A stretch of 64,000 nucleotides of DNA from positions 46,064 through 110,063 of the IMG/VR virus record IMGVR_UViG_3300021077_000115. One strand, given 5' to 3'. Positions 17,671 to 54,841 of the stretch are shown piece after piece. Numbering within the stretch: the first letter of the stretch is position 1; each line of letters begins with the position of its first letter. The notes under the pieces are model-generated. The model saw nothing but the letters and a program-made list of their open reading frames with translations, did no database searches and was not told where the DNA came from. A program made the translations under genes and the position numbers. This stretch comes from a virus.

Positions 17671-17706
17671 GTTTCAACTCACGCTCCTTCTCAGGAGCGA
17701 TGTAAC
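17671..17706 (-). repeat. solitary (orphan) CRISPR repeat, 36/36 identical to the array repeat and in the same orientation
   Basis: The text is gtttcaactcacgctccttctcaggagcgatgtaac. No second repeat or degenerate copy lies within ±100 nt. It sits between the stop of 17706..18047 and the start of 17160..17666. Confidence 0.9.
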
Positions 17707-22416: not shown

Positions 22417-22587
22417 TATTTCCTCACTGGTCGGTCGGCTGCCTCGGCAACTATTTCCAATTTAGTTCTGCCAAGTTCAGTGAATGCAATGCTCTTGGCC
22501 ATCAATCTAATCTCTCTAGAATTATGTGTCTCACGAAGTACACGTCGAATACCAGCGTTCTCATTACCTGGAAACGGTTATCGGCGT

Positions 22588-22824
22588 TCAGATAATTACA
22601 ACGACATTCACTGGGTCGTCATTACCATCTACATCGGAATTCGCCCAATACTGCCATCCGTTTGCAGTCGGTGTTTCGTGGAGCCGATTAACGCCAAGAA
22701 CTTCTCTCGCCCACGCTCTTGCTGCACGTTCAGAGCGTACAATAGTATGATACCTATTCATGTAAGAAAGTTGTAAACGTCTTTTGATTCGACTTCGAAG
22801 TAAACTAACAGGTTTACGAGCCAT
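22588..22824 (-). CDS. hypothetical basic protein
   Basis: The 78-aa ORF is Arg-rich. Confidence 0.35.
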   Translation of the reverse strand: MARKPVSLLRSRIKRRLQLSYMNRYHTIVRSERAARAWAREVLGVNRLHETPTANGWQYWANSDVDGNDDPVNVVVII

Positions 22825-22835
22825 GATTCTACTTT

Positions 22836-22961
22836 CTATCGGTTATCAGTTATCAGTCAGAAATCTGCAGTCGGCGGTCGGCAGTCGGCAGTCAGCTATC
22901 GGAGGTCGGCGGTCGGAGGTCGGAGGTCGGCGGTCGGCTATCAGCTATCGGCTATCGGTAG
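22836..22961. repeat. intergenic tandem array of ~18 degenerate 7-bp units (consensus TCGG[A/C]GG on plus strand)
   Basis: The tract ctatcgg ttatcag ... tcggcgg tcggcag tcggcag tcagcta tcggagg tcggcgg tcggagg tcggagg tcggcgg tcggcta tcagcta tcggcta tcggtag has 7-nt periodicity throughout, with one phase slip near 22857. It lies exactly between two minus-strand genes. Confidence 0.85.
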
Positions 22962-23173
22962 TCCAGCTTCTCAGAGAACCCAGGTTGGAATACTTGGAGT
23001 TCCCTTTGCTTCATGTTGCTATTTTCAATCTGAGCCAATCGAACCTTACCCCAGCCGCCAGATAAGCAGCACATCAATACAACGCCATTTTGCAAGAACT
23101 GCAACGCCTCCCAGGCTTCCAGCACTTGCATGCCCTCAGGCTCACAACGCATCTCACTATCTAATTCAGACAT
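22952..23173 (-). CDS. hypothetical protein
   Basis: A 73-aa ORF. Confidence 0.35.
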   Translation of the reverse strand: MSELDSEMRCEPEGMQVLEAWEALQFLQNGVVLMCCLSGGWGKVRLAQIENSNMKQRELQVFQPGFSEKLDYR

Positions 23174-30418: not shown

Positions 30419-31186
30419 TCATAGATCTTCCCTAGCTCTAACGAATATTGCCGGCCGTGGAATTCCTTCTTTTGTCAGCAACTCCCATTCATAGGTTATA
30501 ATCTTTCCAATAGGCGGCGGGTTCTTTGCCATCGCCTCCGTCATACCCGAAGCAACTTTGAATCTCAGGCCCTTGCTGTTCATTACCTCAAGAGATCCGC
30601 AAAGCCCTGGACGAGTTCCTTCAATGTGTCCAATGACCACGGCCTCTGCATCGAACCTAGGCTTTACTTTGAGCAGTGTGCTGCTTCGCTTTTTCTCATA
30701 TCGAGAACCAGGCTTGCGAAGCATCAGGCCCTCACCTCCGGCAGCTACGATTTCTTTGAGCTGCTTGAGAAGTTGTTCTTTGCTTTCACATACCCAAAAA
30801 TCAATTACCTTCGCATTGACGGCTCGATTGAGAACCATCTGAGCATACTTGATACGCTGTTCAAACCCTTGCAGATAATCAGGCGCATCATATACCGAGT
30901 AATGAATGGCTTTCCAATCCTGCTCGCGTTTACCACTGACTGCTGAAGTTACCTTTCCAATCTCACCACGTCCGGCGTACAGCTCTCCATCAAGCGCTTC
31001 GTGTGGAAGGCCCTGAGTGAACCATGCCGGAGGCTCAATGACGCGCCCGAAGCTACCATCAGCTTTGCGGCTATGAAAGTGTTTGCCATTCCAATGAGCT
31101 CTGTGTCCGTCCAATTTTTCGCTAACCAAATATCCCTTTGGATCGAGTTTATGATCCCATCTATTAGCTAATAGAAAGTCAGTCAT
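30419..31186 (-). CDS. ATP-dependent DNA ligase (minimal, Chlorella-virus/T7-like size)
   Basis: The adenylation motif I KxDGxR is present (SEKLDGHRAHW). Motifs IV/V are EGLMLRKP and LLKVK. The 255-aa length fits a minimal ligase. Confidence 0.85.
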   Translation of the reverse strand: MTDFLLANRWDHKLDPKGYLVSEKLDGHRAHWNGKHFHSRKADGSFGRVIEPPAWFTQGLPHEALDGELYAGRGEIGKVTSAVSGKREQDWKAIHYSVYDAPDYLQGFEQRIKYAQMVLNRAVNAKVIDFWVCESKEQLLKQLKEIVAAGGEGLMLRKPGSRYEKKRSSTLLKVKPRFDAEAVVIGHIEGTRPGLCGSLEVMNSKGLRFKVASGMTEAMAKNPPPIGKIITYEWELLTKEGIPRPAIFVRAREDL

Positions 31187-31301: not shown

Positions 31302-32189
31302 TCATGGAAACTCTCGCTCCTCTTTTTTACCAGAAGAATTCAATACCTCAATCTTTCCGGCACCCACATCAATCTTACCCGCCAGTTCCGGAAAGTAATA
31401 TTTCGCACCACCAGTATATACAACCAGGTTATCTCGCCTCTCATAAATACCGGGCGAATGTGTATGTCCCGTCAGAACCACAAACTTCTTGTCTGTATTC
31501 TTCTCGGCATATTTATCAAGCACAGCCCCTATGCTAGCGCTTGTAAACCAAGGCTGCCAATCTCGATCGCTATGACTCCCCTCATGCCAAGCTGATTCTG
31601 GATATGGAGGGACATGCGTCGCAACCAGGATTATATCCTTTGGCGTTTCACAAACCATTTTGAGCATATCATCCAAACGATCCGCTTCTTTCTTTGCTCG
31701 CTCTCGAACCAGATCGATCATCAGATCTCTGTAGTTGAGTCCAGATAACTCTTTGATAGCCGTGAAATCATTAATCTCAATGAATGTTTTGGTGTTGCCG
31801 TGATAAGCATCATACCAACCATTAACACCAACGATGGCCATTCGGTTTGCATTGTCGTTCGGACTGCGCGGGTGAAATTCGCTTACCCAACCCTCGTTGA
31901 GCCAAAATAAATTACCAAACTTCTTGGTAAGTTTTGGAATCAACTCATCAATTTCTTTGAATGAACTGTTGTAATGATCATGATTACCAAGAATGAAGTA
32001 AATTGGATTAGGAAATCCTTGTGCAATTTGCGTGAGATGTTTCTCAAGCACTTCGCCACTTGAAATATCTCCTGTGAGTATTAGACCATCAGCATTTGGA
32101 TTCTCTTCAGCAAGACATTGCACAAACCTAAATGCTCCATCGTCTCGTTTTAGAAAATTTAGGTGGCTGTCTGAAACCCATAATAACAT
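31302..32189 (-). CDS. calcineurin-like metallophosphoesterase
   Basis: The motifs VSDSHL, LTGDIS, GNHDH, ATHVPP and GHTHSPG match the MPP signature (D-X-H...GD...GNH[DE]...GH-X-H). Confidence 0.8.
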   Translation of the reverse strand: MLLWVSDSHLNFLKRDDGAFRFVQCLAEENPNADGLILTGDISSGEVLEKHLTQIAQGFPNPIYFILGNHDHYNSSFKEIDELIPKLTKKFGNLFWLNEGWVSEFHPRSPNDNANRMAIVGVNGWYDAYHGNTKTFIEINDFTAIKELSGLNYRDLMIDLVRERAKKEADRLDDMLKMVCETPKDIILVATHVPPYPESAWHEGSHSDRDWQPWFTSASIGAVLDKYAEKNTDKKFVVLTGHTHSPGIYERRDNLVVYTGGAKYYFPELAGKIDVGAGKIEVLNSSGKKEEREFP

Positions 32190-34548: not shown

Positions 34549-35481
34549 CTAGCTGGCCTTTGCCGTCTTCGCTCGGGTTCGCTTTGCCTTTGGCTCCTTA
34601 GCCACTGGCGCTGTCAACGTCAAAGGCTCTACAGCCTTAGTCACAACAGGTGCTGCAGCTGGCGCAGCTTCAATACCAATCTTAGCCATCTCCTCGGCGA
34701 TCTTTTCTTCCGACATGCCAATGGCACGCAGTGAAGCACGAAGAGCATCCGCCATACCGGTGTTCTTGACTGGCGCTGACACTTCAGTAATCGTGGCGCT
34801 CGGATTCTCAATCTTCACCTGCACCGCAGCGTTCAGCTTCTCGATGAACCTGTCAGAATATCTGGAAGAATCGAAGGTGGGCTTGGACAACGTATCCATG
34901 AGCACCTTGCCCATTGCCATCTCGACCGGAGAAATCTGTACGTTCGCACACTTGTTATCGAAGCCGCGAACCTCTGTGTCGTAGAACATCTGGTACATGA
35001 CGAGGCCGTGTTGATAAGCACGGATTGCCACAAGATGTTCCTTGCCACGTGCTACGTATGTTCCAACTGCCGCTCGATTATGAGCCTTGAGAAGTTCATA
35101 CAAGAACTTGTAACCCTTATCCATGCCCTTGTCAGGCGCGGTGTAGTACGTTTGCTCGACATGCAGAGGATCAATTTCGCTTGTCGGCACGAACTCGGCA
35201 ATGTCCAGCGAGTCTTTCTTCGCCGCTTGCATGTTCGCCACTTCTTCTTCCGTGAATATAACGTATTGGTCCTTGGCGTATTCGTAGCCCTTTACAGAGT
35301 CACTACGCAGAACCTCTGCTAGCGTAACCGAATCAACCAACTTCTGACTGAGTCGGTTCCCAGTTTTGGGATTGATCATGTTGAAGCTCACAGACTCGGC
35401 ACCCGCCGCCTTGTATAGCTTGATAGCAATTTGTGCCATTCCAAAACTAAGAACTACTCGTCCGACTGATCGTGCTGACAT
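34549..35481 (-). CDS. ku: Ku (NHEJ DNA-end-binding protein) homolog
   Basis: The N-terminus SVGRVVLSFGMAQIAIKLYKA matches the bacterial Ku pattern (isFGLV.iPVkLysA). The core LVAIRAYQHGLVMYQMFYDTEVR is present. A lysine/alanine-rich basic C-terminal tail is present. Confidence 0.8.
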   Translation of the reverse strand: MSARSVGRVVLSFGMAQIAIKLYKAAGAESVSFNMINPKTGNRLSQKLVDSVTLAEVLRSDSVKGYEYAKDQYVIFTEEEVANMQAAKKDSLDIAEFVPTSEIDPLHVEQTYYTAPDKGMDKGYKFLYELLKAHNRAAVGTYVARGKEHLVAIRAYQHGLVMYQMFYDTEVRGFDNKCANVQISPVEMAMGKVLMDTLSKPTFDSSRYSDRFIEKLNAAVQVKIENPSATITEVSAPVKNTGMADALRASLRAIGMSEEKIAEEMAKIGIEAAPAAAPVVTKAVEPLTLTAPVAKEPKAKRTRAKTAKAS

Positions 35482-40636: not shown

Positions 40637-41242
40637 ATGAAGAAGACTTGCCCAAAATGTAACAGTGAAAAACTAACAAAGTTCTTCAGCAAGAATCATA
40701 AAGCACCAGACGGATTAGCTTATTACTGCAAGAAGTGCAGTTCTGATTGTGCAAAGGATTTTAGAAGTAAACCTCTTCCAAATATCAAAACAACAATTAA
40801 GAGGTTTGAATCTAAGTTTGAAAAGTCTGGCAGTAATGATTGCTGGTTGTGGAAGTCTTCAATTAATCAAAATGGGTATGGTGTCTTTGGGGTTGGCGGT
40901 AAAGTTCTGACAGCTTCGCGAGTGGCATATGAACTTTACATTGGCCAAATTCCAACAGATAAACTTGTACGTCACAAGTGTGACAACCCGCCATGTGTAA
41001 ATCCAAATCACCTTGAGCTTGGAACAAACCTTGATAACTCTGGAGATATGGTAAACAGAGAGCGGGTTGCGCGAGGAGAGTCTAGTGGATTATCTAAGAT
41101 TAGCGAGACTGATGTTAGAAATATCATCAGGTTAAGAAGTGAAGGGATAACTCAACAAGCAGTTGGAGATATGTTTGGTTTGTCTAGATCACAAATATCA
41201 AACATTGAAAGAGGGATTAGCTGGAATCAACAGGCCCAATAG
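40637..41242 (+). CDS. HNH homing endonuclease (HNH_3 type) with N-terminal zinc ribbon and C-terminal HTH
   Basis: An N-terminal CPKCNS...CKKCS ribbon is present. The HNH core is CWLWKSSINQNGYGVF...ASRVAYELYIGQIP.DKLVRHKCDNPPCVNPNHLELGT. The C-terminal HTH is ITQQAVGDMFGLSRSQISNIERG. It lies on the plus strand among minus-strand genes. Confidence 0.8.
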   Translation: MKKTCPKCNSEKLTKFFSKNHKAPDGLAYYCKKCSSDCAKDFRSKPLPNIKTTIKRFESKFEKSGSNDCWLWKSSINQNGYGVFGVGGKVLTASRVAYELYIGQIPTDKLVRHKCDNPPCVNPNHLELGTNLDNSGDMVNRERVARGESSGLSKISETDVRNIIRLRSEGITQQAVGDMFGLSRSQISNIERGISWNQQAQ

Positions 41243-41371: not shown

Positions 41372-42418
41372 ATGAAATATGCTTATTTGACAACAATCGT
41401 AACATCCGCAATGCTGAGTGGCTGCCCATCCCCCACACCAACTCCCGTAGCAAATACCGGAGGAAACTTTTCAACCGGGGGAAAATTTGCAACTGGTGGA
41501 AGGTTTTCAACCGGAGGCAATCTTGCAACTGGAGGTGCATCACGCGGTGGCTCTTCTGCAACAGGCGGAAGCTTCGGCGGCGCTGCAACAGGTGGAGAAT
41601 CTTCGGCAACAGGCGGAAGCTTACCATGCGTAACCACCGTTTGGCCAAGCGTCATAATCACCCCACCAAAAACAGCAACAAAAACACAGCATAAGTTCAT
41701 CGAACGTCACGTGCGGCCTCGTGCCAGAGCTATGTCAGCCACCGCTTTCTACGGAGCGGCTCCCGTGCAATGTGATTTGGCTCATTTTCCGAATAGTACA
41801 ACGCCACTGAACCAAGGCAAGTACGGAGCTTGTACTGGTTGCGCGTCTGATGGTGTTATCTCCAGCTTACCATTCATTGGAATCCCACATTTCAACCTGA
41901 CAACCGCCCTTCAGATCTATCAAGGAGGAACATGTAAAGATAATGGGTGTGCGTTCCCATGTACCTGTGCCTCTTGTCCTGCAGCATTTTGCCCAGCCAC
42001 AGGAGCAAATGATAACGGAAGCCAAGGAAGCTCTGTATTTGACTACCTAGTTTACATGGGCTGGATGAAAGGCTACGTAACAGCCGATACTACAGACGAT
42101 CTTCTCGCCGGTCTTTCGTATAGCTCATGCGAAATTGGTATTGATTACTACTATTCCATGATGACGCCAGCTTCAAACGGTAGGTTGGTTGTTACAATCT
42201 CCTCAGGAATCGCGGGCGGACACGAACTCGATGTCGTTGGCTATCGAAGTGACTTCCAAGGCGTTGTGATTCGCAATAGCTGGGGCCCTTGGGGTCAGTG
42301 CTATCCAAACCAAGAGACTTCCAATACATCGAAGGACGGAACAGGTTGCGGTTTCGCTTGGATCGCTGTTAGCGACTTGCCAACATTGAACTTCGATGGT
42401 GATTGTGTTGTATTGTAA
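41372..42418 (+). CDS. secreted lipoprotein with Gly-rich TGG repeats and papain-like (C1 family) cysteine peptidase domain
   Basis: The lipobox is MKYAYLTTIVTSAMLSGC. The low-complexity stretch (FSTGG/FATGG/SATGG) x7 follows. The C1 triad context is QGKYGACTGCAS (Cys), GGHELDVVGY (His) and VIRNSWGPWG (Asn). Confidence 0.55.
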   Translation: MKYAYLTTIVTSAMLSGCPSPTPTPVANTGGNFSTGGKFATGGRFSTGGNLATGGASRGGSSATGGSFGGAATGGESSATGGSLPCVTTVWPSVIITPPKTATKTQHKFIERHVRPRARAMSATAFYGAAPVQCDLAHFPNSTTPLNQGKYGACTGCASDGVISSLPFIGIPHFNLTTALQIYQGGTCKDNGCAFPCTCASCPAAFCPATGANDNGSQGSSVFDYLVYMGWMKGYVTADTTDDLLAGLSYSSCEIGIDYYYSMMTPASNGRLVVTISSGIAGGHELDVVGYRSDFQGVVIRNSWGPWGQCYPNQETSNTSKDGTGCGFAWIAVSDLPTLNFDGDCVVL

Positions 42419-43912: not shown

Positions 43913-44539
43913 TTACTTGGAACCCTTTTTGCCGGCCTTCTTGCCAGTCTTCTTCGTGGCCTTGGCTTTGGCAGCCTTCTTGGCAGCCCTTGCTTCGGCA
44001 GCAGCAACGGCTTCCTTCTTGACGTTCTGGCGCACATTGTAAACGTTGGCCGGAACAACTTTCTTCAGGCCGAGCGAGTGGCAATGATCAACAACTTCCG
44101 TGGCCTTGGCTTCGGGATTCTCATCATCGTAGTCACGAATGACCTGAGAGGCCGTACGCCCATCCTTCGTCAGTACGCGCTTGCCAGCTTTGCTGGGCTT
44201 CACTGCGGCGGTAGCCTTAGCTTTCTTCGCGCGACCGCTCGGGCCAATATCGCCGTCATCATCCTTCGCCTTGTTCTTGGAACCTGCTGGGCGTCCTGGA
44301 CCTCTCTTCACAGGCGTCTCGACCGTCTTGCTCTTTGACCCAGCAGGACGACCGGGGCCACGCTTCGTGGGCTGCTCGGTAGTATCAGTTGCGTCGGCGA
44401 CGACTGCGGCCGGTGCAGAAATAGTAGAGGACATTGCAGCCACGAATTTATTGAAGAAGAGACCTTCGAGAGCTTTGACGGTCTTGGGGTGAAGGGTCTC
44501 AAGTACTTCCGCTGCATTGATGTTTGTTATTGCGTTCAT
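43913..44539 (-). CDS. AT-hook / histone H1-like basic DNA-binding protein
   Basis: Two AT-hook motifs, KRGPGRPAGSK, are present. The C-terminus is Lys/Ala-rich (AKKAAKAKATKKTGKKAGKKGSK). It has its own consensus promoter and terminator. Confidence 0.6.
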   Translation of the reverse strand: MNAITNINAAEVLETLHPKTVKALEGLFFNKFVAAMSSTISAPAAVVADATDTTEQPTKRGPGRPAGSKSKTVETPVKRGPGRPAGSKNKAKDDDGDIGPSGRAKKAKATAAVKPSKAGKRVLTKDGRTASQVIRDYDDENPEAKATEVVDHCHSLGLKKVVPANVYNVRQNVKKEAVAAAEARAAKKAAKAKATKKTGKKAGKKGSK

Positions 44540-45660: not shown

Positions 45661-46555
45661 ATCCTTGCTCCTTCTCAGGAGCGATGTAACCTCAGGAGCG
45701 ATGTAACGATGCCCATCATGCACAGGTTTCAACTCACGCTCCTTCTCAGGAGCGATGTAACCTTTCTTTGGTAACATTACTTAATTACACTCACACCCGT
45801 TTCAACTCACGCTCCTTCTCAGGAGCGATGTAACAGGGTCTTGTCGTTCTGAAGGTCGAGAGTGCCGATGTTTCAACTCACGCTCCTTCTCAGGAGCGAT
45901 GTAACCTGTAAGACGACAACCGACCTCCGACCTCAGACCTCCGTTTCAACTCACGCTCCTTCTCAGGAGCGATGTAACCAATCACGTAGCGAACTAGCCT
46001 TATTCTGTGGAATAGGTTTCAACTCACGCTCCTTCTCAGGAGCGATGTAACGACGATCAGCGCTCGCACCTGCGGTATCAAGGCGCAGTTTCAACTCACG
46101 CTCCTTCTCAGGAGCGATGTAACTTTACACCAAGTGGAAATCACTTCCCCGATTCTGTTTCAACTCACGCTCCTTCTCAGGAGCGATGTAACCTAGTTCG
46201 CATTGCCACGGAGTATTTAGTGGGTAATGGTTTCAACTCACGCTCCTTCTCAGGAGCGATGTAACCAATGGCATCTAAGAAACGCGGTCGTCCAAAGGGC
46301 TTGTTTCAACTCACGCTCCTTCTCAGGAGCGATGTAACTTGGTAAGAGTCATGGGGTCGGAAATCGTGGCTCCGTTTCAACTCACGCTCCTTCTCAGGAG
46401 CGATGTAACCGCCAGGCCCGTTGCAGTCTGGAGACTCTCCCGGCCCGTTTCAACTCACGCTCCTTCTCAGGAGCGATGTAACCCGTCAGGAGTCGTTATC
46501 CCTTCTCCGTCAATTCCAAGTTTCAACTCACGCTCCTTCTCAGGAGCGATGTAAC
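45661..46555 (-). CRISPR. CRISPR array with 12 identical 36-bp repeats and 11 spacers (33-37 nt), plus two truncated degenerate repeats at the leader-distal end; type I-C-like repeat transcribed on the minus strand
   Basis: The plus-strand repeat is GTTTCAACTCACGCTCCTTCTCAGGAGCGATGTAAC. It starts at 45726, 45799, 45870, 45943, 46016, 46088, 46157, 46230, 46303, 46374, 46447 and 46520. The reverse complement ends GTGAGTTGAAAC, and I-C repeats typically end ATTGAAAC. An internal palindrome GCTCC-ttctca-GGAGC is present. The partial repeats at 45661-45707 mark the old end. The leader lies next to cas7. Confidence 0.95.
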
Positions 46556-46779
46556 TCATTCGTCAATAACCTAACAATTTCAAAGACTTGAAGTTTGATT
46601 TGCGAGAGGGTGTCACAATAATGATGTGACTACCCAACACAGTAGTCGGCCATCAGTATTATCTATAACAATATCCACTACATATGCGCTGCGAGCGGCT
46701 ACTGGAATTTGTATACCATCAAGCCGCTCGCAGAAATAAATTATCAAAGAACCGGATGGCTAATTAGCCACACGTCAAT
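46556..46779 (-). promoter_or_regulatory. CRISPR leader region
   Basis: It is 224 bp, AT-rich, and sits between the cas7 stop and the first repeat. It contains an 11-bp inverted repeat, tgcgagcggct...agccgctcgca. Confidence 0.5.
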
Positions 46780-47616
46780 TCAGAATCCAGAAATCACTTC
46801 AGGCTTTAATCCAGTGAGCTCTGAAATATCTACCTCACCATTCGGCCTTGCCATCACAGATTGATGTACCTTGGCTGATGAGTATTGTCCAGCTTTACAG
46901 TTGTGCTCAAACCACACAACTTTCAATACCTCCATGCTGCCCTCGGGTCGCGACGATGAAGCGTCATTCTCAAACATTTTCGGCAGAATTTTCTTGATAA
47001 CTTCAGCATCCGTATCACTGAATCCTGTACGTTCTGCCAATTGAGGGTTCATACTGCCACGCATCACGTACACACCTTCACCTACCCGATGTTTCATTCC
47101 CATCGTATCCGAACCGCGCTTCTTCCCATCCCCATCCCCATTCACGCTCTTTGTAATTTGCGTGCTAGTAATTCTAATAGGTTCAACACTTACCGCAGAA
47201 TGAATCGATACAGGGCCACGAATACCTACCGATATCCCAGAGTCCTGGTCTTCGCCCTTCTTAACCTTCTTGGCGGCAAAGGCAAACAACTGTCCAAATG
47301 CACGAACATCGAACCAGGTTTTGCAAGACTCAGCAACCAGCTCGCTACTACCAAGCTTGCTTCCTAATGTCTTTTCCGCACGAGCCTTGAGGCTCTCTGC
47401 ATCATCTGTTTTACGATCATCAGACTGTACGAAGATCTTCTGACCACTCTCAAGCAATCGGTCTCGTAACTTACGCTTGAGACATACGTCAGTAACCTCA
47501 CCGAAGCCGTTGTAATCAGTGCGCGGACAATTTCCGTTAAGCGGGTCACCATTGGGATTGGCGTTGCGAACACGGAAGACTAGAATGAAATCGATTTTGC
47601 TGTTTAAAGTTTTCAT
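46780..47616 (-). CDS. cas7: Cas7 (Csd2), type I-C
   Basis: MKTLNSKIDFILVFRVRNANPNGDPLNGNCPRTDYNGFGEVTDVCLKRKLRDRL matches the Csd2/DevR signature (V.N.NPNGDPD.GN.PR.D...G.VTDVCLKRKIR). Confidence 0.85.
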   Translation of the reverse strand: MKTLNSKIDFILVFRVRNANPNGDPLNGNCPRTDYNGFGEVTDVCLKRKLRDRLLESGQKIFVQSDDRKTDDAESLKARAEKTLGSKLGSSELVAESCKTWFDVRAFGQLFAFAAKKVKKGEDQDSGISVGIRGPVSIHSAVSVEPIRITSTQITKSVNGDGDGKKRGSDTMGMKHRVGEGVYVMRGSMNPQLAERTGFSDTDAEVIKKILPKMFENDASSSRPEGSMEVLKVVWFEHNCKAGQYSSAKVHQSVMARPNGEVDISELTGLKPEVISGF

Positions 47617-47660
47617 ATCTGTAAATCTTTCTTCTGTAAATTGTCGCTAACTAAAAAAAC

Positions 47661-49553
47661 TTAATTCTTGACCGTTTTTGAAGGCTCATCCGCACTATTA
47701 CCTTCTCCTGACCCTTCTTGCTTTTCCCACAACACAGCACGTTGGCAGTAGTAGCCAAGTTGATATTCTGTTGAAAGCCGCAGATCACTAATAAAGTCAT
47801 CATGCTTAAATGATGTAATGACACTTTCGAGCAATTGTTCCATATTATAAAGGAACCCACCAGCCTTAGATGCCAGCTGAGCTTTGTATGGAACAAGTGC
47901 TAGTGAAATCGTCCTCCACGTTGACGATGGCCTATCCGCAAAACACTGAGTCAACCGCGCAGCATTTGTCTGACGTTGATCCTTTGGGTTTGGATTTGAA
48001 AGATACAGAGCAAAGCCCTCTATGCGCTCGGCAATTGCCAACAATCTCCCAAACAAATAGTCTCTGGATGTACGGTTCTCTTCGAGTGTCATCTCATATT
48101 TCCTTTGGTAAAAAGTACCACGATAAAGGGCGCATGCAATCCCTAAACATTTTTCAAACTCCCATTTTTCCAAACCAACTCGATTCGATACTCTGCGAGA
48201 TATTGACTCAACCAAATCTCGTGGAACAGTTACATCATCAATAATACATGGCAGCAATCTCTCAACAGTTGCCTTCTTGAGCTTGTCATCCAACCGACGG
48301 CCATACGCCGCCTCTGCAATATCTCTCGGCGCTGGAGCTCCAACGAATCGGTGCTCCTTACCAAAATTCTGCTTCCATGAATATTGCAGATGCCACTTCT
48401 CAAGCCGTTCTAGAAAGTCCGAGCCCTTCAAATCCCTATAGTAAGGTATTGCTAAACGCCCAGGAGTTGCGGAGTCAAGAACCATCACCACTACATTTTC
48501 ATTACCAGAAAGATTTGATTTATATCCGGCAATTGCCCTCGATAGCCGCTTAGCAAACGCTTGACCTACGTCGGTGGCCCTATCTGTTTCTTCCTCAATT
48601 CCAAAGATGGTCATCGTGTCATCGCATAGGCTCGGTATCACCTTTCCACTTACGGCCCAAGAGACGATTGCCTGGGTATCATTTCTGAATGACTGTCTGC
48701 CAATCAACCACCGAAGCGCATTGTGGGCCTTGTGAGTTGCCTCGAACCCAATCGTTATTGCTTCATTGGAGTTTGTGAATTTTCCACGAAACGTGTAATT
48801 TTTATCGTCATTAGACGATATTAATTTTGCATTATCTGCCGTGTGTCGAATTTTTTTAGGATGCTTCGTTGTGAGTGGAACTTCCTGTCCCGTTATCATG
48901 CATATCCCAAATATAGATTCCTGCTTCGAAACATACTCTGACCACGCATTTAGAAGGGTAGGATCTTCCCAAGTGCCTGAGGCTAAGTCATTTTCATGCT
49001 CAACTCTCCAACGTACGAAAGCATCCGATTGGTTACCGCTGATGATCGCCTTACAAATTTCAGGCGTGTTATCTTTTCCACCAACCCATTGCGCAGGTAG
49101 CTTTCCCTTACTGTCGGCAAATAATACCTTGGCCCCTATAAGGTCTGTAATTACCTGCATCTTTTTGACATACTTAAGGATAGCAATTAGCTTCGGATGC
49201 TTTGAGGTGTTGGTAAAGTTTACAAGCGCATCAAGATATGCGCTATGAAATTTTTCTGCGCCAGAAACCTTTTCAGAGAAATCTCCCGCCACATACTTCA
49301 GCTTATCACAAAGGGGGTGGGCGGTTGAATCGCAGGTTCTGCACGCTGAATCATCTGTGCAAGGAATTATGGTTGGCTGATCCCGCTTGGCAAGTACAGA
49401 AGCCCTTCGAAAGTTACCATTGCCATCGAGGACAATCTCTATTTGTGCCAGCTGGCTTGTATGGGAGATTGGATAAATATCTTCAGATTCTGGAACGTTC
49501 TGATTGTCCTTACAGCAATCATACGTCTCTATCAATCTATGCATCCAGCTCAT
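47661..49553 (-). CDS. cas8c: Cas8c (Csd1), type I-C large subunit
   Basis: Its 630-aa size and position between cas5c and cas7 fit. The N-terminal pattern MSWMHRLIETYD...IYPISHTSQLAQIEIVLDGNGNF resembles Csd1 N-termini. Confidence 0.75.
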   Translation of the reverse strand: MSWMHRLIETYDCCKDNQNVPESEDIYPISHTSQLAQIEIVLDGNGNFRRASVLAKRDQPTIIPCTDDSACRTCDSTAHPLCDKLKYVAGDFSEKVSGAEKFHSAYLDALVNFTNTSKHPKLIAILKYVKKMQVITDLIGAKVLFADSKGKLPAQWVGGKDNTPEICKAIISGNQSDAFVRWRVEHENDLASGTWEDPTLLNAWSEYVSKQESIFGICMITGQEVPLTTKHPKKIRHTADNAKLISSNDDKNYTFRGKFTNSNEAITIGFEATHKAHNALRWLIGRQSFRNDTQAIVSWAVSGKVIPSLCDDTMTIFGIEEETDRATDVGQAFAKRLSRAIAGYKSNLSGNENVVVMVLDSATPGRLAIPYYRDLKGSDFLERLEKWHLQYSWKQNFGKEHRFVGAPAPRDIAEAAYGRRLDDKLKKATVERLLPCIIDDVTVPRDLVESISRRVSNRVGLEKWEFEKCLGIACALYRGTFYQRKYEMTLEENRTSRDYLFGRLLAIAERIEGFALYLSNPNPKDQRQTNAARLTQCFADRPSSTWRTISLALVPYKAQLASKAGGFLYNMEQLLESVITSFKHDDFISDLRLSTEYQLGYYCQRAVLWEKQEGSGEGNSADEPSKTVKN

Positions 49554-50260
49554 AACAAACCAACTTCTGTGTCTACTGATTGTACGTTTGTGCCAAGACC
49601 AAACATTTTCGGAGCCATATCCCTCACAAACCTACGAATCTTGCATTTGTCAGGACGAGGGAAATTAATAACTCCATTAACCATTGTTGGTTGGTACATT
49701 CGACACTCCAACTTGTGCTCTCCGGTTTCCTCAGGATAGTCGAAGCCATGGAACATCAACCCGTAAGCCAGCTCAGCGCTATCGTCATAGTAACCTTTGC
49801 TAGCGCCAAACTCACACGGTTCTACATATCCCTGGCAATCTCTAGTTCCAAGAAAGATGTCTTGCCGGCCACCAAGTTCCAAACACCGCTTCACTATCGC
49901 AAAGTGCTTGCCATCAATACGATCTTCTTTCAAACCAGGCTGGTGCAGGTTCCATTCGAAGTGAGCTTGAACTTGGTACTCGACATTTGATAGAAACGTG
50001 TAAATGGATAGGTCGTTGCCACCTGAAAACTTAAGAGGTTTAACACCCTTCGTCTGGGTTGTGATGCGATTCATGATCCGCACCCGGTCTACAATCCATG
50101 TGAACGTTGGTTTGAAGTATATGGACTTAACGATGCCTTTCACTGCTTCGTATGTGGGTATTTGATAGGAGCATTTCTCACCACCCACCCTGGTCACCGG
50201 GTCTGTGAAGAGGGCATAGCGCCCCCAAACTCTAAAGCTGATCGCATTCTTCATATTCAT
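49550..50260 (-). CDS. cas5c: Cas5c (Cas5d), type I-C pre-crRNA endoribonuclease/Cascade subunit
   Basis: AISFRVWGRYALFTDPVTRVGGEKCSYQIPTYEAVKGIVKSIYFKPTFTWIVDRVRIMN matches the Cas5d N-terminal signature (YALF.DP......SY.VPTYSALKGI.ESIYWKP). Confidence 0.85.
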   Translation of the reverse strand: MNMKNAISFRVWGRYALFTDPVTRVGGEKCSYQIPTYEAVKGIVKSIYFKPTFTWIVDRVRIMNRITTQTKGVKPLKFSGGNDLSIYTFLSNVEYQVQAHFEWNLHQPGLKEDRIDGKHFAIVKRCLELGGRQDIFLGTRDCQGYVEPCEFGASKGYYDDSAELAYGLMFHGFDYPEETGEHKLECRMYQPTMVNGVINFPRPDKCKIRRFVRDMAPKMFGLGTNVQSVDTEVGLL

Positions 50261-50382
50261 TCCTTTCTAAAACGCTTCAACTCACGAGCCACCTGCGAAT
50301 GGCGCGAACTTTCAAGCCCATGATAATGCATGGGCTTGAAAAGTCAAAGTGTTTCTTTCTAAAACAAAGATTATTAGGCCGG
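50261..50382 (-). promoter_or_regulatory. cas3-cas5c intergenic region with a 10-bp perfect hairpin and a CRISPR-repeat-like fragment just upstream of the cas5c start
   Basis: The plus-strand hairpin is caagcccatg-ataatg-catgggcttg. Read on the minus strand, 20 nt before the cas5c ATG, the segment GCTCGTGAGTTGAAGCG shares 11 nt (CGTGAGTTGAA) with the repeat 3' end GAGCGTGAGTTGAAAC. Confidence 0.35.
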
Positions 50383-52860
50383 TCAATCAGACCAAGTAAC
50401 CCCGAAGTCGTTGTAATAGCCATCATCTAAGTAGTAAATTGATGAGCCTTCTTGGATAGGGTGAATGGCATTAAGATCCATTAATTTTTTGCAATCAGTA
50501 TCAAAAATATTAACTGTGAATTGCTGCGCTCTGCGAAGTAGTTTGAATTCAGTTTCCAAATTAGCCGAACGTAGTTCATTGATTATTTCAATACCATCTT
50601 TATAAGGAACGACTACTCCAGTGGTTCGCGAATCAATAGGGTTAAAGGCCTTGGCGGCAGTAGAAAACGACTGCCACATCATATTCTTATCAAGATCTCC
50701 GTATGTTTTATCATAGGAGACTACTGAGATTGCGTTCGTTGAAAGCAGTTGAAGCAATGAATCAGATCTGCCAATATCATTAGCTTGATTGGCAGTAACG
50801 TTGTACTCCATTTCGCCGCGTCGTTTGAAGAAATAACCTTCGTAAAAAGCATTCATGGCAGCCAATCCAATTATATCACCATCAAATTTCTGTGGGTCTG
50901 CTTGGAAGTCTGCCAAGATTCTTTCTGAAACCTCAATGCCTTTTTTGATATCAACCAAGCTGCTTATGTTTTCAATCTCTTTCGCTGGATTAGTAATGGA
51001 CACAATTCCCATTTCACGCTCACCATTGCGGTTACAACGACCAGCCGCCTGAGCAATAGAATCCAGCCCAGCTAAACACCGTATAACTGCGCCAAAATCA
51101 ACATCAACTCCGGCCTCAATAAGCTGAGTGCTAACACAAATTATATTCTCCTTGCGTTTCAAGTGCCCTCGTACCTTAGCTAATATCTCACGCCGATGGG
51201 TTGAGCACATATTAGTGCTAAGATGATACAATGGTAACTTCGTATCCTTGAGTGCCAGACACACCGCCTTGGCTGTCTTTTTTGTATTCACAATCACCAA
51301 GCAACTTCCAGCTTGCTCTGCTTTTTCCTGAGCGGAGCTGGCAATCTCTGCAGCTTGCCAACCTTCAGGCTTTCTACAATCAACTACCTTTACACGTTTC
51401 AGGTCATTGAATAAACGCTGAACGTCTGGAATAATTTCTGTAGCCTGCTTGATCGCACCCTTCTTTTGGTCAACCTTGCTAAGAAGAGGTTGTGTCGCTG
51501 TGCAAAGAACTACTGAGCAGCCACATTGCTCAACTAAGAAGTTGATTGCGTTGTTGAACATATGAATGCATTTTATGGGTAGCGTTTGGATCTCGTCAAA
51601 TATAATAACCGAATTCGCCAGCTGATGTAGTCTCCTAACATTGCGTGTTCCACTACCAAAAATAGCTTCAAGAAATTGCACATGTGTAGAAAAAACTACC
51701 GGTGCATCCCAGTTCTCTGTTAGGATTCTATCTTTCCAAATTCTACTCTTATCTTGCCACTTAGAAACCATCTCATCATCGTCATTCTTTTTCTCATTCA
51801 CCACATTACAATGGTGTTCAAGCACCACCTGTGTGTTACCCTCTGGTCTATTCTTAGGTTCTAAGATTTCCCTAACTACATCAGCATTCTGATCAATGAT
51901 TGAGGTAAATGATATAAAATTAAATACTCGTTTTAAATTATGTATTTTGGCGTGATGTAAACCAAACCTTAAGCTACCAAGTGTTTTGCTTCCTCCAGTA
52001 GGAACTGATAACGTAAAAATACCAGGTAGACGAACAGCGGCTTCGCGACAATTCCTAGATACGTTATTTCGAATTAAATCAATTTGGCGAGTTCCAAGAG
52101 CATATGAATTAACTTTCTTCTCAAGCCGCTCAATCAACACATCCCATGATACGTAATTACCATTCAAACGAAATTTTCCAAAATTTGGTTTTTCGAAGTC
52201 GGCGGTATCGGTTCTATCAGCATCAATCAAACCACTAAATAAATATCTCACCAACAACCCAACTTGGAATTTTGATACCATTATGCTGTTGCTGGAGTTG
52301 GTTGCAATATTTTTGATTACATCTATCAATCTATCTACAAACCCAGGCCTTCCAATAATTTCCAAACTCCGCCTAACTAATTCATATTCTGCATTAGAAA
52401 CCACCTCATCGAAGTTCACGTCCTTACTAGCACGGCGCGTAAATTTATCTTCAGCCGGATTTGGTGCCAAGCAGTCAATTAAACCAGAATGGTGAGAACA
52501 TACACAAAGAAAAAGAATCTGACCAACAAGCCTGCCGCATACACCTTGCTTCGACAATTCACGCCAGATAAATTGTGCCCCAGCTGTTGCATGATCAATC
52601 TTGCCTTTGTATTCAGAAACGTCTACAAACCCCGCATCTCCGGGTTTTAGTAATCCAACTCCTGATTTGATGTAGTTCTGAAATTTAGAGCTGTACTTAC
52701 CGAGATCGTGTAGTAATCCGATTAGCTCACCATGATCTGCCAGCCCTATCTTTTCTGCGCAAATTCTGGATATCTTAGCTACACCTTCTAGATGTTCTTG
52801 AACGGTTTGTGTGATGCCATCTTCTTCTCGTAAATGAGCTATATAAGTCATCTTACCCAC
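50383..52860 (-). CDS. cas3: Cas3 (HD nuclease + DExH helicase), type I signature protein
   Basis: The N-terminal HD domain is HLEGVAKISRICAEKIG.ADHGELIGLLHDLGKYS..FQ. Helicase motif I is VPTGGSKT. Motif II is IFDEIQT. The C-terminal helicase domain runs for 825 aa in total. Confidence 0.9.
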   Translation of the reverse strand: MGKMTYIAHLREEDGITQTVQEHLEGVAKISRICAEKIGLADHGELIGLLHDLGKYSSKFQNYIKSGVGLLKPGDAGFVDVSEYKGKIDHATAGAQFIWRELSKQGVCGRLVGQILFLCVCSHHSGLIDCLAPNPAEDKFTRRASKDVNFDEVVSNAEYELVRRSLEIIGRPGFVDRLIDVIKNIATNSSNSIMVSKFQVGLLVRYLFSGLIDADRTDTADFEKPNFGKFRLNGNYVSWDVLIERLEKKVNSYALGTRQIDLIRNNVSRNCREAAVRLPGIFTLSVPTGGSKTLGSLRFGLHHAKIHNLKRVFNFISFTSIIDQNADVVREILEPKNRPEGNTQVVLEHHCNVVNEKKNDDDEMVSKWQDKSRIWKDRILTENWDAPVVFSTHVQFLEAIFGSGTRNVRRLHQLANSVIIFDEIQTLPIKCIHMFNNAINFLVEQCGCSVVLCTATQPLLSKVDQKKGAIKQATEIIPDVQRLFNDLKRVKVVDCRKPEGWQAAEIASSAQEKAEQAGSCLVIVNTKKTAKAVCLALKDTKLPLYHLSTNMCSTHRREILAKVRGHLKRKENIICVSTQLIEAGVDVDFGAVIRCLAGLDSIAQAAGRCNRNGEREMGIVSITNPAKEIENISSLVDIKKGIEVSERILADFQADPQKFDGDIIGLAAMNAFYEGYFFKRRGEMEYNVTANQANDIGRSDSLLQLLSTNAISVVSYDKTYGDLDKNMMWQSFSTAAKAFNPIDSRTTGVVVPYKDGIEIINELRSANLETEFKLLRRAQQFTVNIFDTDCKKLMDLNAIHPIQEGSSIYYLDDGYYNDFGVTWSD

Positions 52861-54131: not shown

Positions 54132-54437
54132 CTAATCGAATAAACTTATGACTTCTTCCCAGTCATTCTCTGAGAAATCTACGATGTATGGTGTCCAGTT
54201 TTTTGGAGACAGATCAAGATACCCACCCACAAATACGAAAGAGCACTCAGGATGGCCAAGTCTAAAGCTGTCAGCATAGATATAAACACCAGCTACCCAT
54301 GCCTTGCGCCTAACCTTCCTGCCCTTGAGCAACAGTTTCCAGGCCCAAGCAAATGATCCTTTTGATGGACGCATTGACCACACAACTGACCATATACAAA
54401 TACCAGTTGCAATTATATACAACACCAATCTTAACAT
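54132..54437 (-). CDS. small membrane protein
   Basis: An N-terminal TM segment, LVLYIIATGICIWSVVW, is present. The ORF is 101 aa. Confidence 0.4.
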   Translation of the reverse strand: MLRLVLYIIATGICIWSVVWSMRPSKGSFAWAWKLLLKGRKVRRKAWVAGVYIYADSFRLGHPECSFVFVGGYLDLSPKNWTPYIVDFSENDWEEVISLFD

Positions 54438-54841
54438 CAGAACAACTCCCTTAGTGCTTTGTAGAAGTCCGAAGCGTTGCCACCCTCAGGAATTCCAGCA
54501 GTGCCACCGTCATTTACTTCAACCACAATCCATTCGCCTTCCTCTTTCTCCGCAACATCAATAGCAAAGAAGTTACTTTTGACATCCGAAACCAGATCAA
54601 TGATAATCTTCTTTAGTGGTCTGTTTGCGAAGTTGTAGAATAAAGAATCCCAATATGGAGCCGAGTAAAAAATCTGACCCTTAAATACAAAGAACCGGTG
54701 TTCATTGAATAATGGTGTCTTGCTCTTGGGGTGCGATCCAATTTGCTTGAGCTTGATGAACTCTCGGAACACAAGACCGCCAGCCAGATCATCGCCCTGC
54801 CCATTGATAAAGTTCGTAATTACTCGACGTAGATTTCCCAT
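54437..54841 (-). CDS. hypothetical protein with ATP-grasp-like C-terminal block
   Basis: FFAIDVAEKEEGEWIVVEVNDGGTAGIPEGG resembles the C-terminal Mg/ATP-binding strand of ATP-grasp enzymes (D.A....G.W.VIEVN...G). The ORF is 134 aa. Confidence 0.35.
   Translation of the reverse strand: MGNLRRVITNFINGQGDDLAGGLVFREFIKLKQIGSHPKSKTPLFNEHRFFVFKGQIFYSAPYWDSLFYNFANRPLKKIIIDLVSDVKSNFFAIDVAEKEEGEWIVVEVNDGGTAGIPEGGNASDFYKALRELF

What the first reader, a model, noticed from the sequence alone, without database searches (positions are those of the whole stretch)
45906..45942. CRISPR spacer 3 is built from the same 7-bp-periodic units as the element's own heptad repeat tract, though it is not identical to it
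Seen: the spacer reverse complement is ggaggtc tgaggtc ggaggtc ggttgtc gtcttacag. That is four NGAGGTC heptads plus a unique 9-nt flank. The intergenic tract 22836-22961 contains ...tcggagg tcggcgg tcggagg tcggagg tcggcgg.... The best local alignment gives about 28/33 identity, for example ggaggtcTgaggtcggaggtcggTtgtcg versus ggcggtcGgaggtcggaggtcggCggtcg. The unique flank does not occur beside the tract here. Inference: the protospacer lies at the edge of a homologous heptad locus in a related, competing element. The mismatches, several of them PAM-proximal or seed, would spare this genome from self-targeting. This fits inter-phage warfare that targets a conserved functional locus such as an origin or a packaging or binding array.
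Basis: partly seen in the sequence, partly recalled or inferred. Interest (0 to 1): 0.6.

Follow-up and report, generated by a model that had tools for sequence, protein, structure and literature searches.

The report
Phage CRISPR spacer resembling own heptad repeat
One spacer in a huge-phage-like element's own type I-C CRISPR array really is built from the same 7-base units as a repeat tract elsewhere in that element, but the tract is a fast-evolving leader of a recently imported small gene, not a conserved origin or packaging site, and the spacer's true target was not found.

Summary
Spacer 3 (45906-45942) aligns ungapped over all 37 nt with 22908-22944 at 30/37. The other ten spacers reach 19-24, and shuffled copies of spacer 3 reach at most 25.

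The array belongs to a cas3-cas5-cas8c-cas7 (type I-C) module on the minus strand, with no adaptation genes next to it.

- (GGNGGTC)n tracts are a widespread simple-repeat family. Seventy-two IMG/VR stretches match spacer 3 at up to 29/37, so the similarity is not locus-specific.
- The two closest syntenic relatives have no tract. Window 22576-22967 (tract plus a 78-aa ORF) is a lineage-specific replacement that truncated two genes.
- Two short contigs carry the same 78-aa gene (91% and 100% identical) inside strings of small ORFs separated by variable mixed heptad tracts. These resemble the intergenic TAACTGA-type heptamer repeats described in bacteria.
- No exact protospacer was found in any collection searched. 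Assemblies break inside such tracts, so this is weak negative evidence.
- No register of the window's own tract has a TTC PAM, and every register has at least one seed mismatch, so self-cleavage is not expected.

Best reading: the spacer was taken from such a tract in a related cassette-bearing phage. Interest is modest.

The parts
45906..45942 (-). Spacer 3 of the array. It is third from the trailer end, so it is an old spacer. crRNA sense: GGAGGTCTGAGGTCGGAGGTCGGTTGTCGTCTTACAG.
45726..46555 (-). CRISPR array: 12 identical 36-nt repeats (crRNA sense GTTACATCGCTCCTGAGAAGGAGCGTGAGTTGAAAC) and 11 spacers of 33-37 nt. The repeat folds as a 7-9 bp hairpin followed by an unpaired tail ending GUUGAAAC.
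45667..45725 (-). Trailer end of the array: an 18-nt mini-spacer and two truncated repeat remnants.
46556..46779 (-). Leader between cas7 and the first repeat.
   Evidence: Related loci L082 and L083 have the same layout.
46780..47616 (-). cas7 (Csd2), 278 aa.
   Evidence: PF05107, E = 5e-73
47661..49553 (-). cas8c (Csd1), 630 aa.
   Evidence: PF09709, E = 2.6e-120
49550..50260 (-). cas5 (Cas5d/c type), 236 aa.
   Evidence: PF09704, E = 7e-40
50383..52860 (-). cas3, 825 aa, with an HD domain and a helicase C-terminal part.
   Evidence: Cas3_HD, HD, Helicase_C, Cas3-like_C_2
22839..22961 (-). Mixed heptad tract of about 17.5 units. On the coding strand the units have the form xxxCYGA (CTACCGA, TAGCCGA, TAGCTGA, CCGCCGA, CCTCCGA, CTGCCGA, TAACTGA, TAACCGA). 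It ends 14 nt upstream of the ATG of the 78-aa ORF. There is no Shine-Dalgarno motif. As RNA it is less structured than all 200 shuffles (z = +3.1).
22908..22944 (+). Best quasi-protospacer for spacer 3: 30/37 identity, PAM slot GTC, seed mismatches at positions 3 and 8.
22588..22824 (-). 78-aa ORF downstream of the tract. It belongs to a small-protein family with 13 representatives. Versions 91% and 100% identical occur in L091 and L092.
22576..22967 (-). Lineage-specific 392-bp segment (tract, 78-aa ORF and the first 13 nt of a downstream tract). It replaces 287-359 bp present in the syntenic relatives. Both junctions lie in or at heptad sequence.
22417..22574 (-). Start-less 52-codon remnant of the 126/151-aa gene that the insertion truncated.
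22952..23173 (-). 73-aa ORF. Its last 3 codons and its stop codon come from the heptad tract. Orthologues in the relatives are 89-91 aa.

Best explanation
Spacer 3 is an ordinary, old spacer in the array of a phage-borne, adaptation-less type I-C CRISPR-Cas module. I infer that it was captured from the 5' edge of a mixed heptamer-repeat tract in another phage genome. That edge lies just after a stop codon: in coding orientation the spacer reads CTG TAA GACGA CAACCGA CCTCCGA CCTCAGA CCTCC. The inferred source genome carries strings of small genes separated by such tracts, as contigs L091 and L092 do.

The window's own tract is the leader of one such small-gene cassette (the 78-aa ORF). The cassette entered this lineage by recombination, with junctions inside heptad sequence, and damaged two resident genes. 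The tract is therefore a scar of genetic exchange with the same pool of elements the spacer came from. It is not a conserved origin or packaging site.

The tracts evolve by whole-heptad insertions, deletions and substitutions much faster than the genes they flank. This explains about 80% identity without an exact match.

The window's copy is not a Cascade target. Every in-phase register offers NTC with N = G or A instead of TTC, and every register carries at least one seed mismatch.

Shown: the array and cas genes, the similarity, the cassette boundaries, the absence of the tract from relatives, the variability of the tracts, and the PAM and seed state.
Inferred: the source of the spacer, the direction of gene flow, and the competition.
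For: - Type I-C cas3-cas5-cas8c-cas7 plus array sit on one strand. The same architecture occurs in related contigs L082-L084, and no cas1, cas2 or cas4 lies beside any of them.
- Full-length match of 30/37 to 22908-22944, against 19-24 for the other spacers and at most 25 for shuffles.
- Such tracts are rare: 72 stretches among 2.9 million IMG/VR contigs. A tract and a matching spacer in one 64-kb window are unlikely to be independent.
- Syntenic relatives L085-L089 have flanks 87-99% identical in DNA but no 7-periodic sequence. Homology breaks at 22968 and resumes at 22575.
- L091 and L092 share only 22575-22857 and 22575-22912 with the window, which is the cassette. They carry three or more heptad tracts each, with the same units in different orders.
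- An L092 ORF hits a phage protein family (phrog_6724, E = 3e-8).
- Spacer 3 scores 27/37 at the tract edge after the 78-aa gene's stop in L091. With one gap it matches TAAG-ACGAC...CCGACCTC after the TAA stop of ORF2 in L092.
- PAM and seed analysis of the own tract, read against the type I-C rules in PMC7913775.
- Huge phages with adaptation-less CRISPR systems whose spacers hit other phages are documented in PMC7162821.
- Intergenic mixed heptamer repeats lying just upstream of start codons, absent from close relatives and linked to gene rearrangement, are documented in PMC4679880.
Against: - No exact or near-exact protospacer was found in IMG/VR, JGI metagenome contigs, GTDB genomes or GenBank phages.
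- None of the other ten spacers has an identified target either, so 'competitor targeting' is untested for the whole array.
- By k-mer sharing, unrelated viral tracts (L034, L067) resemble the spacer as much as or more than the window, L091 or L092 do. Sequence alone does not tie the spacer to this cassette family.
- The rest of the roughly 392-kb genome could not be read, so a closer self-match elsewhere is not excluded.
- The phage nature of the window rests on PHROG hits, gene orientation and IMG/VR relatives. No structural genes were identified in the window.
Confidence: 0.5

Rival explanations
1. Generic-repeat coincidence. The spacer came from some unrelated (GGNGGTC)n tract, in the host chromosome, a plasmid or an unrelated virus. 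It resembles the window's tract only because both belong to a widespread simple-sequence family.
For: - Seventy-two IMG/VR stretches from contigs of 27-72% GC fit the degenerate three-heptad pattern and match spacer 3 at 21-29/37.
- L034 matches positions 1-23 exactly.
- An unrelated high-GC JGI contig (L090) fits a degenerate full-length 37-mer that includes the flank.
- In bacteria such as Microcystis, mixed heptamer arrays occur hundreds of times per genome (PMC4679880).
- Phage arrays are known to carry host-directed spacers (PMC7162821).
Against: - Tracts of this family are rare per contig (72 in 2.9 million). Having both a tract and a matching spacer in 64 kb is improbable if the two are unrelated.
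- The window's tract is still the top scorer, and the match runs in phase across a change of unit type.
- The real heptad order beats 99.4% of permuted orders. That null is biased, however, because permutation breaks up the clustering of like units.
Confidence: 0.22
2. Fossil self-spacer. The spacer was acquired from this phage's own tract, or from an earlier version of the cassette, using host adaptation proteins during replication. The lineage survived because the fast-mutating tract, or its PAM, drifted out of range.
For: - The own tract is the best match known, at 30/37.
- The tracts mutate quickly by heptad indels and substitutions. The window, L091 and L092 differ greatly in their tracts while the gene is 91-100% identical.
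- The mismatches include seed positions and the PAM slot, which is what escape from self-targeting would select.
Against: - Seven mismatches plus a non-TTC PAM is more change than escape requires.
- No heptad in the present tract begins with A after CCTCCGA, so no in-phase TTC PAM exists from which the spacer could have been sampled.
- The tract is identical in five independent samples, so no ongoing drift is visible.
- The spacer lies near the old end of the array, whereas the cassette looks recent. Its gene is 100% identical to the L092 copy, and the genes it truncated still survive as recognisable remnants.
Confidence: 0.13
3. The protospacer lies in a conserved functional array (an origin, a pac site or a protein-binding array) shared by competing relatives.
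For: - The tract is tandemly repetitive and intergenic.
- A spacer resembles it.
Against: - The tract is absent from the closest syntenic relatives.
- It lies in an insertion that destroyed two genes.
- Its neighbours are small ORFs and a PARP-like gene, not replication-initiator or terminase genes.
- The tracts around the same gene in L091 and L092 have different unit orders.
- From general knowledge, 7-bp units without dyad symmetry are unlike typical iterons.
Confidence: 0.05
4. Regulatory crRNA. The partly complementary crRNA guides Cascade to bind the phage's own tract without cleaving it and so represses the 78-aa gene, in the manner of CreA-type or autoregulatory mini-arrays.
For: - The partial match (30/37) lies in the leader of a gene, 14-137 nt upstream of its ATG.
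Against: - Known Cascade-based repression needs a functional PAM and an intact PAM-proximal seed. Here the PAM slot is GTC or ATC, and positions 3 and/or 8 mismatch in every register.
- The spacer is an ordinary internal member of a 12-repeat array.
Confidence: 0.03

Closest known systems
CRISPR-Cas systems encoded by huge phages (Al-Shayeb et al. 2020, PMC7162821)
   Same: - The context is a large phage-like contig. Cas8c cluster P0001 is recorded on a 392-kb contig.
- The array is compact and no cas1, cas2 or cas4 lies beside the locus.
- The proposed use is against competing phages.
   Different: - The module here is a complete type I-C interference set with an HD-helicase Cas3. The type I-C variant in that paper has a different helicase in place of Cas3.
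- No target of any spacer could be identified here.
- No Cas8c homologue (E < 1e-20) exists among 50,697 GenBank phage records.
Canonical bacterial type I-C (Dvulg) CRISPR-Cas, e.g. the Pseudomonas aeruginosa island system (Leon et al. 2021, PMC7913775)
   Same: - Gene order cas3-cas5-cas8c-cas7.
- Cas5-type processing is implied by the absence of cas6.
- The repeat is a hairpin with a tail ending in TTGAAAC.
- Spacers are 33-37 nt.
   Different: - cas4-cas1-cas2 are missing next to the array.
- The repeat is 36 nt, and the repeat family is absent from 185,579 GTDB species genomes and from IMG/VR.
- The PAM is undetermined.
Intergenic TAACTGA and related heptamer direct repeats of Beggiatoaceae, Cyanobacteria and Bacteroidetes (MacGregor 2015, PMC4679880)
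   Same: - Tandem 7-nt units, mixed with related heptamers.
- Orientation is forward towards a start codon a few nucleotides downstream, with no Shine-Dalgarno motif.
- Close relatives with the same gene neighbourhood lack them.
- The downstream ORF looks horizontally acquired.
- Differences arise in 7-nt steps, and assemblies break at these tracts.
   Different: - Here they are in a phage-like element, and TAACTGA itself is a minority unit (one exact copy in the window, more in L091).
- The dominant units are CCGCCGA, CCTCCGA and TAGCCGA.
- No link between such repeats and a CRISPR spacer, and no occurrence in phages, is mentioned in that paper ('phage' and 'CRISPR' each occur 0 times).
Self-targeting spacers and escape by PAM or seed mutation
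   Same: - A spacer has strong similarity to the genome that carries it.
- The differences sit at the PAM slot and at seed positions.
   Different: - It is not an exact match (7 of 37 differ).
- No evidence shows that the present tract was ever the source.

Membership tests
Type I-C CRISPR-Cas | Signature gene cas8c (Csd1) together with cas5 (Cas5d type), cas7 (Csd2) and cas3 | tested here: met
   Pfam matches: Cas_Csd1 E = 2.6e-120, Cas_Cas5d E = 7e-40, Cas_Cas7 E = 5e-73, Cas3_HD plus Helicase_C plus Cas3-like_C_2. The genes are contiguous on the minus strand at 46780-52860.
Type I-C CRISPR-Cas | Adaptation genes cas4-cas1-cas2 between cas7 and the array | tested here: not met
   The array follows cas7 after a 224-bp leader. 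ORFs flanking the locus have no Cas Pfam hits. The same holds in relatives L082 and L083. The rest of the genome was not examined. The module is an interference-only variant.
Type I-C CRISPR-Cas | Repeat with a stable hairpin followed by an unpaired tail of about 11 nt ending in (A/G)TTGAAAC, and no cas6 | tested here: met
   The repeat folds at -13.2 kcal/mol, z = -3.3, with tail GAGUUGAAAC. No cas6 lies in the locus. The expected form of the tail is from general knowledge of type I-C repeats.
Type I-C CRISPR-Cas | 5'-TTC PAM beside protospacers | not testable with these tools
   No protospacer was found for any spacer. TTC is taken from PMC7913775.
Phage-encoded CRISPR arrays aimed at competing phages | Spacers match other phage genomes | tested here: inconclusive
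   All 11 spacers were searched against GenBank phages with no match. Spacer 3 was searched against IMG/VR, JGI metagenome contigs and GTDB genomes with no exact match. There is no cross-matching with related loci. Assemblies end inside heptad tracts, so absence is weak evidence.
Phage-encoded CRISPR arrays aimed at competing phages | The carrier is a phage genome | tested here: inconclusive
   - PHROG hits.
- Genes are almost all on one strand.
- Relatives are IMG/VR viral contigs.
- The best GenBank hits are a huge uncultured phage and Brevundimonas jumbo phages.
- A 392-kb contig is recorded.
- No capsid, tail or terminase gene was recognised inside the window.
Self-targeting spacer | Exact or near-exact protospacer with a functional PAM in the same genome | tested here: not met
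   Within the 64-kb window the best match is 30/37 with PAM slot GTC. Every register has at least one seed mismatch. The remaining roughly 330 kb of the genome could not be examined.
TAACTGA-type intergenic heptamer direct repeats (MacGregor 2015) | Tandem 7-nt direct repeats that include TAACTGA mixed with related heptamers | tested here: met
   The window's coding strand reads ...CTGA TAACTGA TAACCGA TAG..., preceded by about 15 xxxCYGA units. L091 has runs of TAACTGA and CAACTGA.
TAACTGA-type intergenic heptamer direct repeats (MacGregor 2015) | Intergenic, forward orientation, ending a few nucleotides upstream of a start codon that lacks a canonical ribosome-binding site | tested here: met
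   The last unit ends 14 nt before the ATG at 22824, and no GGAG, GAGG or AGGA lies in that leader. The same arrangement is seen before ORFs in L091 and L092.
TAACTGA-type intergenic heptamer direct repeats (MacGregor 2015) | Occurrence in Beggiatoaceae, some Cyanobacteria and some Bacteroidetes | not testable with these tools
   The host is unknown. The CRISPR repeat is absent from GTDB genomes, and the nearest named Cas8c homologues (about 52% identity) come from assorted phyla.
   L085-L089 keep the flanking genes at 87-99% DNA identity but have no 7-periodic sequence. The tracts around the same gene in L091 and L092 differ in unit order.
Cascade-guided regulatory crRNA (partial self-complementarity) | Functional PAM and an uninterrupted PAM-proximal seed match at the regulated promoter or leader | tested here: not met
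   The PAM slots are GTC or ATC, with mismatches at position 8 (every register) and position 3 (best register).

The most novel reading that the evidence does not exclude
The heptad tracts are the recombination substrate of a cassette-shuffling system in huge phages: small genes move between genomes by crossovers inside the tracts. Because each lineage's tract sequence is idiosyncratic, a CRISPR spacer taken from a tract edge would work as a kin or non-kin barcode. It would cut co-infecting relatives, or incoming cassettes, that carry the matching variant and spare the carrier's own diverged copy.
Probability: 0.1. Interest if true: 0.7.

Novelty: new member of a known kind. Interest (0 to 1): 0.38.

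Why it matters
If the source of spacer 3 is confirmed as a tract in a sibling phage, this would be a concrete case of a phage-borne type I-C system aimed at a hypervariable, non-coding repeat of relatives. It would also link CRISPR memory to a partner with which the phage has demonstrably exchanged a gene cassette.

Separately, heptamer tracts flanking small-gene cassettes and marking recombination junctions in a huge phage would extend a repeat class so far described in bacteria (PMC4679880). That points to a possible route of gene gain in large phages.

As it stands, the target is unknown. The general phenomena, phage-encoded CRISPR and intergenic heptamer repeats, are already described.

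Tried and rejected
**Protospacer searches**
- The exact 20-nt PAM-distal part of the spacer gave 0 hits in IMG/VR, JGI metagenome contigs and GTDB genomes.
- A 19-nt central part gave 0 hits in IMG/VR.
- A degenerate 37-mer in JGI metagenome contigs gave one unrelated high-GC hit, L090.
- All 11 spacers concatenated against GenBank phages gave no match.

**CRISPR repeat searches**
- The exact repeat and a degenerate version gave 0 hits in IMG/VR and GTDB genomes.

**Relatives found through neighbouring proteins**
- The 558-aa neighbour has no IMG/VR relative.
- PARP-based relatives L008 and L009 are not syntenic around the tract and have no tract.
- Spacers of the related arrays L082 and L083 do not match the window, and the window's spacers do not match them.
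- Distant homologues of the 78-aa protein (L093-L097) sit in high-GC phage contigs with no heptad tracts. The tracts are therefore not intrinsic to that protein family.

**Structure and host**
- Rfam and tRNA scans of the window were empty.
- The tract is not a structured RNA, and no convincing promoter or terminator lies in it.
- k-mer sharing failed to tie the spacer specifically to the cassette family.
- The host could not be inferred. Shine-Dalgarno motifs precede 36% of genes against 12% background, which is not diagnostic. Sample accessions are not in the literature library, except PRJEB12083, which is river and hospital effluent and is the source of relative L082.

**Other tandem repeats**
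- The 18-bp and 12-bp repeats at 41456-41535 and 43916-44002 lie inside called ORFs (348 aa on the + strand, 208 aa on the - strand). I read them by eye as coding repeats rather than iterons; I did not translate them.
Full report
**1. What is at the coordinates**

The window carries a CRISPR array of 12 identical 36-nt repeats at 45726-46555, with 11 spacers of 33-37 nt. The segment 45906-45942 is the third spacer counted along the + strand. Tandem Repeats Finder independently reports period 7 inside the spacer (45920-45943) and in 22837-22958. A 7-periodicity scan finds no other such tract in the 64 kb.

**2. Context of the array**

Immediately on the high-coordinate side, all on the minus strand, lie four cas genes (Pfam):
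- cas7 at 46780-47616
- cas8c/Csd1 at 47661-49553 (E = 2.6e-120)
- cas5 at 49550-50260
- cas3 at 50383-52860 (HD plus helicase)

This is a type I-C interference module. The array follows cas7 after a 224-bp leader, and no cas4, cas1 or cas2 lies beside it.

Several features put transcription on the minus strand:
- The repeat read on the minus strand is GTTACATCGCTCCTGAGAAGGAGCGTGAGTTGAAAC. It forms a stable hairpin with an unpaired tail.
- Truncated repeats sit at the low-coordinate end, which is therefore the trailer.
- Related contigs L082 and L083 have the same cas-leader-array order.

Spacer 3 is therefore third from the trailer, an old spacer.

The carrier looks like a huge phage:
- Genes run almost all in one direction.
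- There are PHROG hits.
- Relatives occur in IMG/VR.
- The best GenBank hits for the primase-helicase are a 484-kb uncultured phage and 350-kb Brevundimonas phages.
- The identical Cas8c is recorded on a 392-kb contig.

I did not recognise any structural genes in the window. Huge phages with adaptation-less CRISPR systems and compact arrays, some aimed at other phages, are already described (PMC7162821).

**3. The similarity, and chance**

The best self-match of spacer 3 is ungapped and full length, 30/37, to + strand 22908-22944. The other ten spacers score 19-24. Three hundred shuffles of spacer 3 averaged 21.8 with a maximum of 25. The resemblance is not chance in the simple sense.

It is largely a shared repeat unit, however. 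A degenerate three-heptad pattern finds 72 stretches in IMG/VR, in contigs of 27-72% GC. These match spacer 3 at 21-29/37, and one, L034, matches the 23 PAM-proximal bases exactly. An unrelated high-GC JGI contig even fits a degenerate version of the whole 37-mer. Similarity alone therefore cannot show that the protospacer sits at the homologous locus.

Two points argue for a biological link:
- Such tracts are rare (72 in 2.9 million contigs), yet a tract and a matching spacer sit in one window.
- The real order of the tract's heptads matches better than 99.4% of permuted orders. I treat this second point as weak, because permutation also destroys the natural clustering of like units.

**4. 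What the tract is**

On the coding (minus) strand the tract reads as about 17.5 units of the form xxxCYGA: CTACCGA, TAGCCGA, TAGCTGA, CCGCCGA, CCTCCGA, CTGCCGA and so on, ending TAACTGA TAACCGA. It stops 14 nt before the ATG of a 78-aa ORF (22588-22824), and no Shine-Dalgarno motif is present. As RNA it is unusually unstructured (z = +3.1).

The tract is identical in four other metagenome contigs of the same phage. The two nearest syntenic relatives tell a different story. L085/L086 and L087-L089 have flanking DNA 87-99% identical to the window but no 7-periodic sequence at all. Homology stops at window 22968 and resumes at 22575. The 392 bp in between, which is the tract plus the 78-aa ORF plus 13 nt of a further tract, replace 287-359 bp of the relatives.

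The replacement damaged two genes:
- It cut the upstream gene from 89-91 aa to 73 aa. The last three codons and the stop codon of the shortened gene come from heptads.
- It left a start-less 52-codon remnant of a 126/151-aa gene at 22417-22574.

A conserved origin or packaging site is therefore not supported.

**5. Where the cassette comes from**

The 78-aa ORF belongs to a real small-protein family (13 representatives; alignment). Two short contigs carry close copies: L091 (91% amino-acid identity) and L092 (identical). They share only the cassette with the window.

In both contigs the gene is one of several small ORFs, each separated by mixed heptad tracts built from the same units in different orders. 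Some tracts are in reverse orientation. One L092 ORF hits a phage protein family.

The window's upstream tract is 85% identical over 81 nt to L092's downstream tract. Beyond that stretch the tracts differ by whole heptads while the gene is 91-100% identical. The tracts therefore evolve much faster than the genes, and the window's junctions lie in heptad sequence. More distant homologues of the protein sit in high-GC phage contigs without any heptads.

This is very like the intergenic TAACTGA and related heptamer repeats described in Beggiatoaceae, Cyanobacteria and Bacteroidetes. Those repeats are mixed units, face forward just upstream of start codons that lack ribosome-binding sites, are absent from close relatives, differ in 7-nt steps, break assemblies, and have suggested roles in translation or gene rearrangement (PMC4679880). 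That paper does not mention phages or CRISPR.

**6. Spacer versus the other tracts**

Spacer 3 scores 27/37 at the tract edge just after the stop codon of the 78-aa gene in L091. It scores 25/37 in L092. With one gap it matches TAAG-ACGAC..CCGACCTC after the TAA stop of the second ORF in L092.

Read in coding orientation, the spacer looks like a stop codon followed by the start of a tract: CTG TAA GACGA CAACCGA CCTCCGA CCTCAGA CCTCC. No copy is exact.

Both L091 and L092 begin inside a tract, which shows that assemblies break there. The failure to find the protospacer in assembled collections is therefore weak negative evidence.

**7. Self-sparing**

In the heptad frame the PAM slot is always NTC, because the GA that ends each unit supplies the TC. 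In the window N is G or A, never T. Every register has a mismatch at position 8, and the best register has another at position 3. Published type I-C data give a TTC PAM and escape mutations at +2 and +3 (PMC7913775). On those rules the window's tract should not be cleaved. This step is an inference from rules established in other type I-C systems.

**8. Best explanation and rivals**

The most likely account (about 0.5) is as follows. The spacer was taken from a tract edge in a related phage that carries heptad-flanked cassettes. The window's own tract arrived by recombination from the same pool. The two differ because the tracts are hypervariable.

The rivals, with my confidence in each:
- A generic heptad tract from the host or an unrelated element (about 0.22).
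- A fossil self-spacer whose target drifted (about 0.13).
- A regulatory crRNA (about 0.03).

**9. Verdict**

The finding is a new example of known kinds of things: phage-borne CRISPR and intergenic heptamer repeats. One twist is new and still unproven, namely that the heptad tracts flank mobile small-gene cassettes in a huge phage and that one tract has been sampled by the phage's own CRISPR array.

Noticed in passing
window 17671-17706: A solitary, exact copy of the 36-nt CRISPR repeat lies 28 kb from the array, in the same orientation. It fills the 39-bp gap between two minus-strand ORFs (17706-18047 and 17160-17666). Its flanks match nothing else in the window apart from a 13-nt identity to 16680, which probably reflects paralogous genes. 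Contigs from two other samples (L004, L006) end right at it. It could be a Cas5 processing site inside an mRNA or a solitary-repeat RNA of the anti-CRISPR kind.
   Followed up: partly
window 45667-45725: The trailer end of the array has decayed. An 18-nt mini-spacer is followed by a 17-nt and a 24-nt truncated repeat.
   Followed up: partly
window 22417-22574 and 22952-23173: The cassette insertion left a start-less 52-codon remnant of a 126/151-aa gene. It also shortened the upstream gene from 89-91 aa to 73 aa, with heptad sequence supplying the new stop codon.
   Followed up: yes
L091 1-55, 293-418, 650-729; L092 1-50, 304-400, 636-700, 1020-1290: Related contigs carry three to four mixed heptad tracts per 1-1.7 kb, in both orientations, between small ORFs. 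Both contigs start inside a tract, so assemblies break there.
   Followed up: partly
L083 9296-9343: The trailer-proximal spacer of a related phage array is 48 nt long and contains an internal tandem duplication (CCGTGTCTCACGC twice). This is another repeat-like spacer in this family of arrays.
   Followed up: no
window 20471-21937, 26485-27015, 30419-31186, 31302-32189, 34549-35481, 54132-54841: The window holds a cluster of DNA-repair, ADP-ribosylation and counter-defence genes: a PARP-like protein with WGR and PARP_reg domains, a Macro domain, an ATP-dependent DNA ligase, a metallophosphatase and Ku. Upstream of cas3 lie a Tad2-like (anti-Thoeris family) protein and an R2K protein.
   Followed up: no
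window 46780-52860: No Cas8c homologue at E < 1e-20 exists in 50,697 GenBank phage records. The 36-nt repeat family is absent from IMG/VR and from 185,579 GTDB species genomes. This type I-C lineage is so far known only from a handful of metagenome contigs (L001-L003, L082-L084).
   Followed up: partly
window 40637-41242 and 18906-20486: Two nuclease-type genes. The + strand 201-aa ORF in an otherwise minus-strand region looks HNH-like by eye (motif CDNPPCVNPNHLELGT) but was not scanned against any family library. The 526-aa ORF next to the PARP-like gene hits HNH endonuclease PHROGs and is shared with IMG/VR contigs L008 and L009.
   Followed up: no
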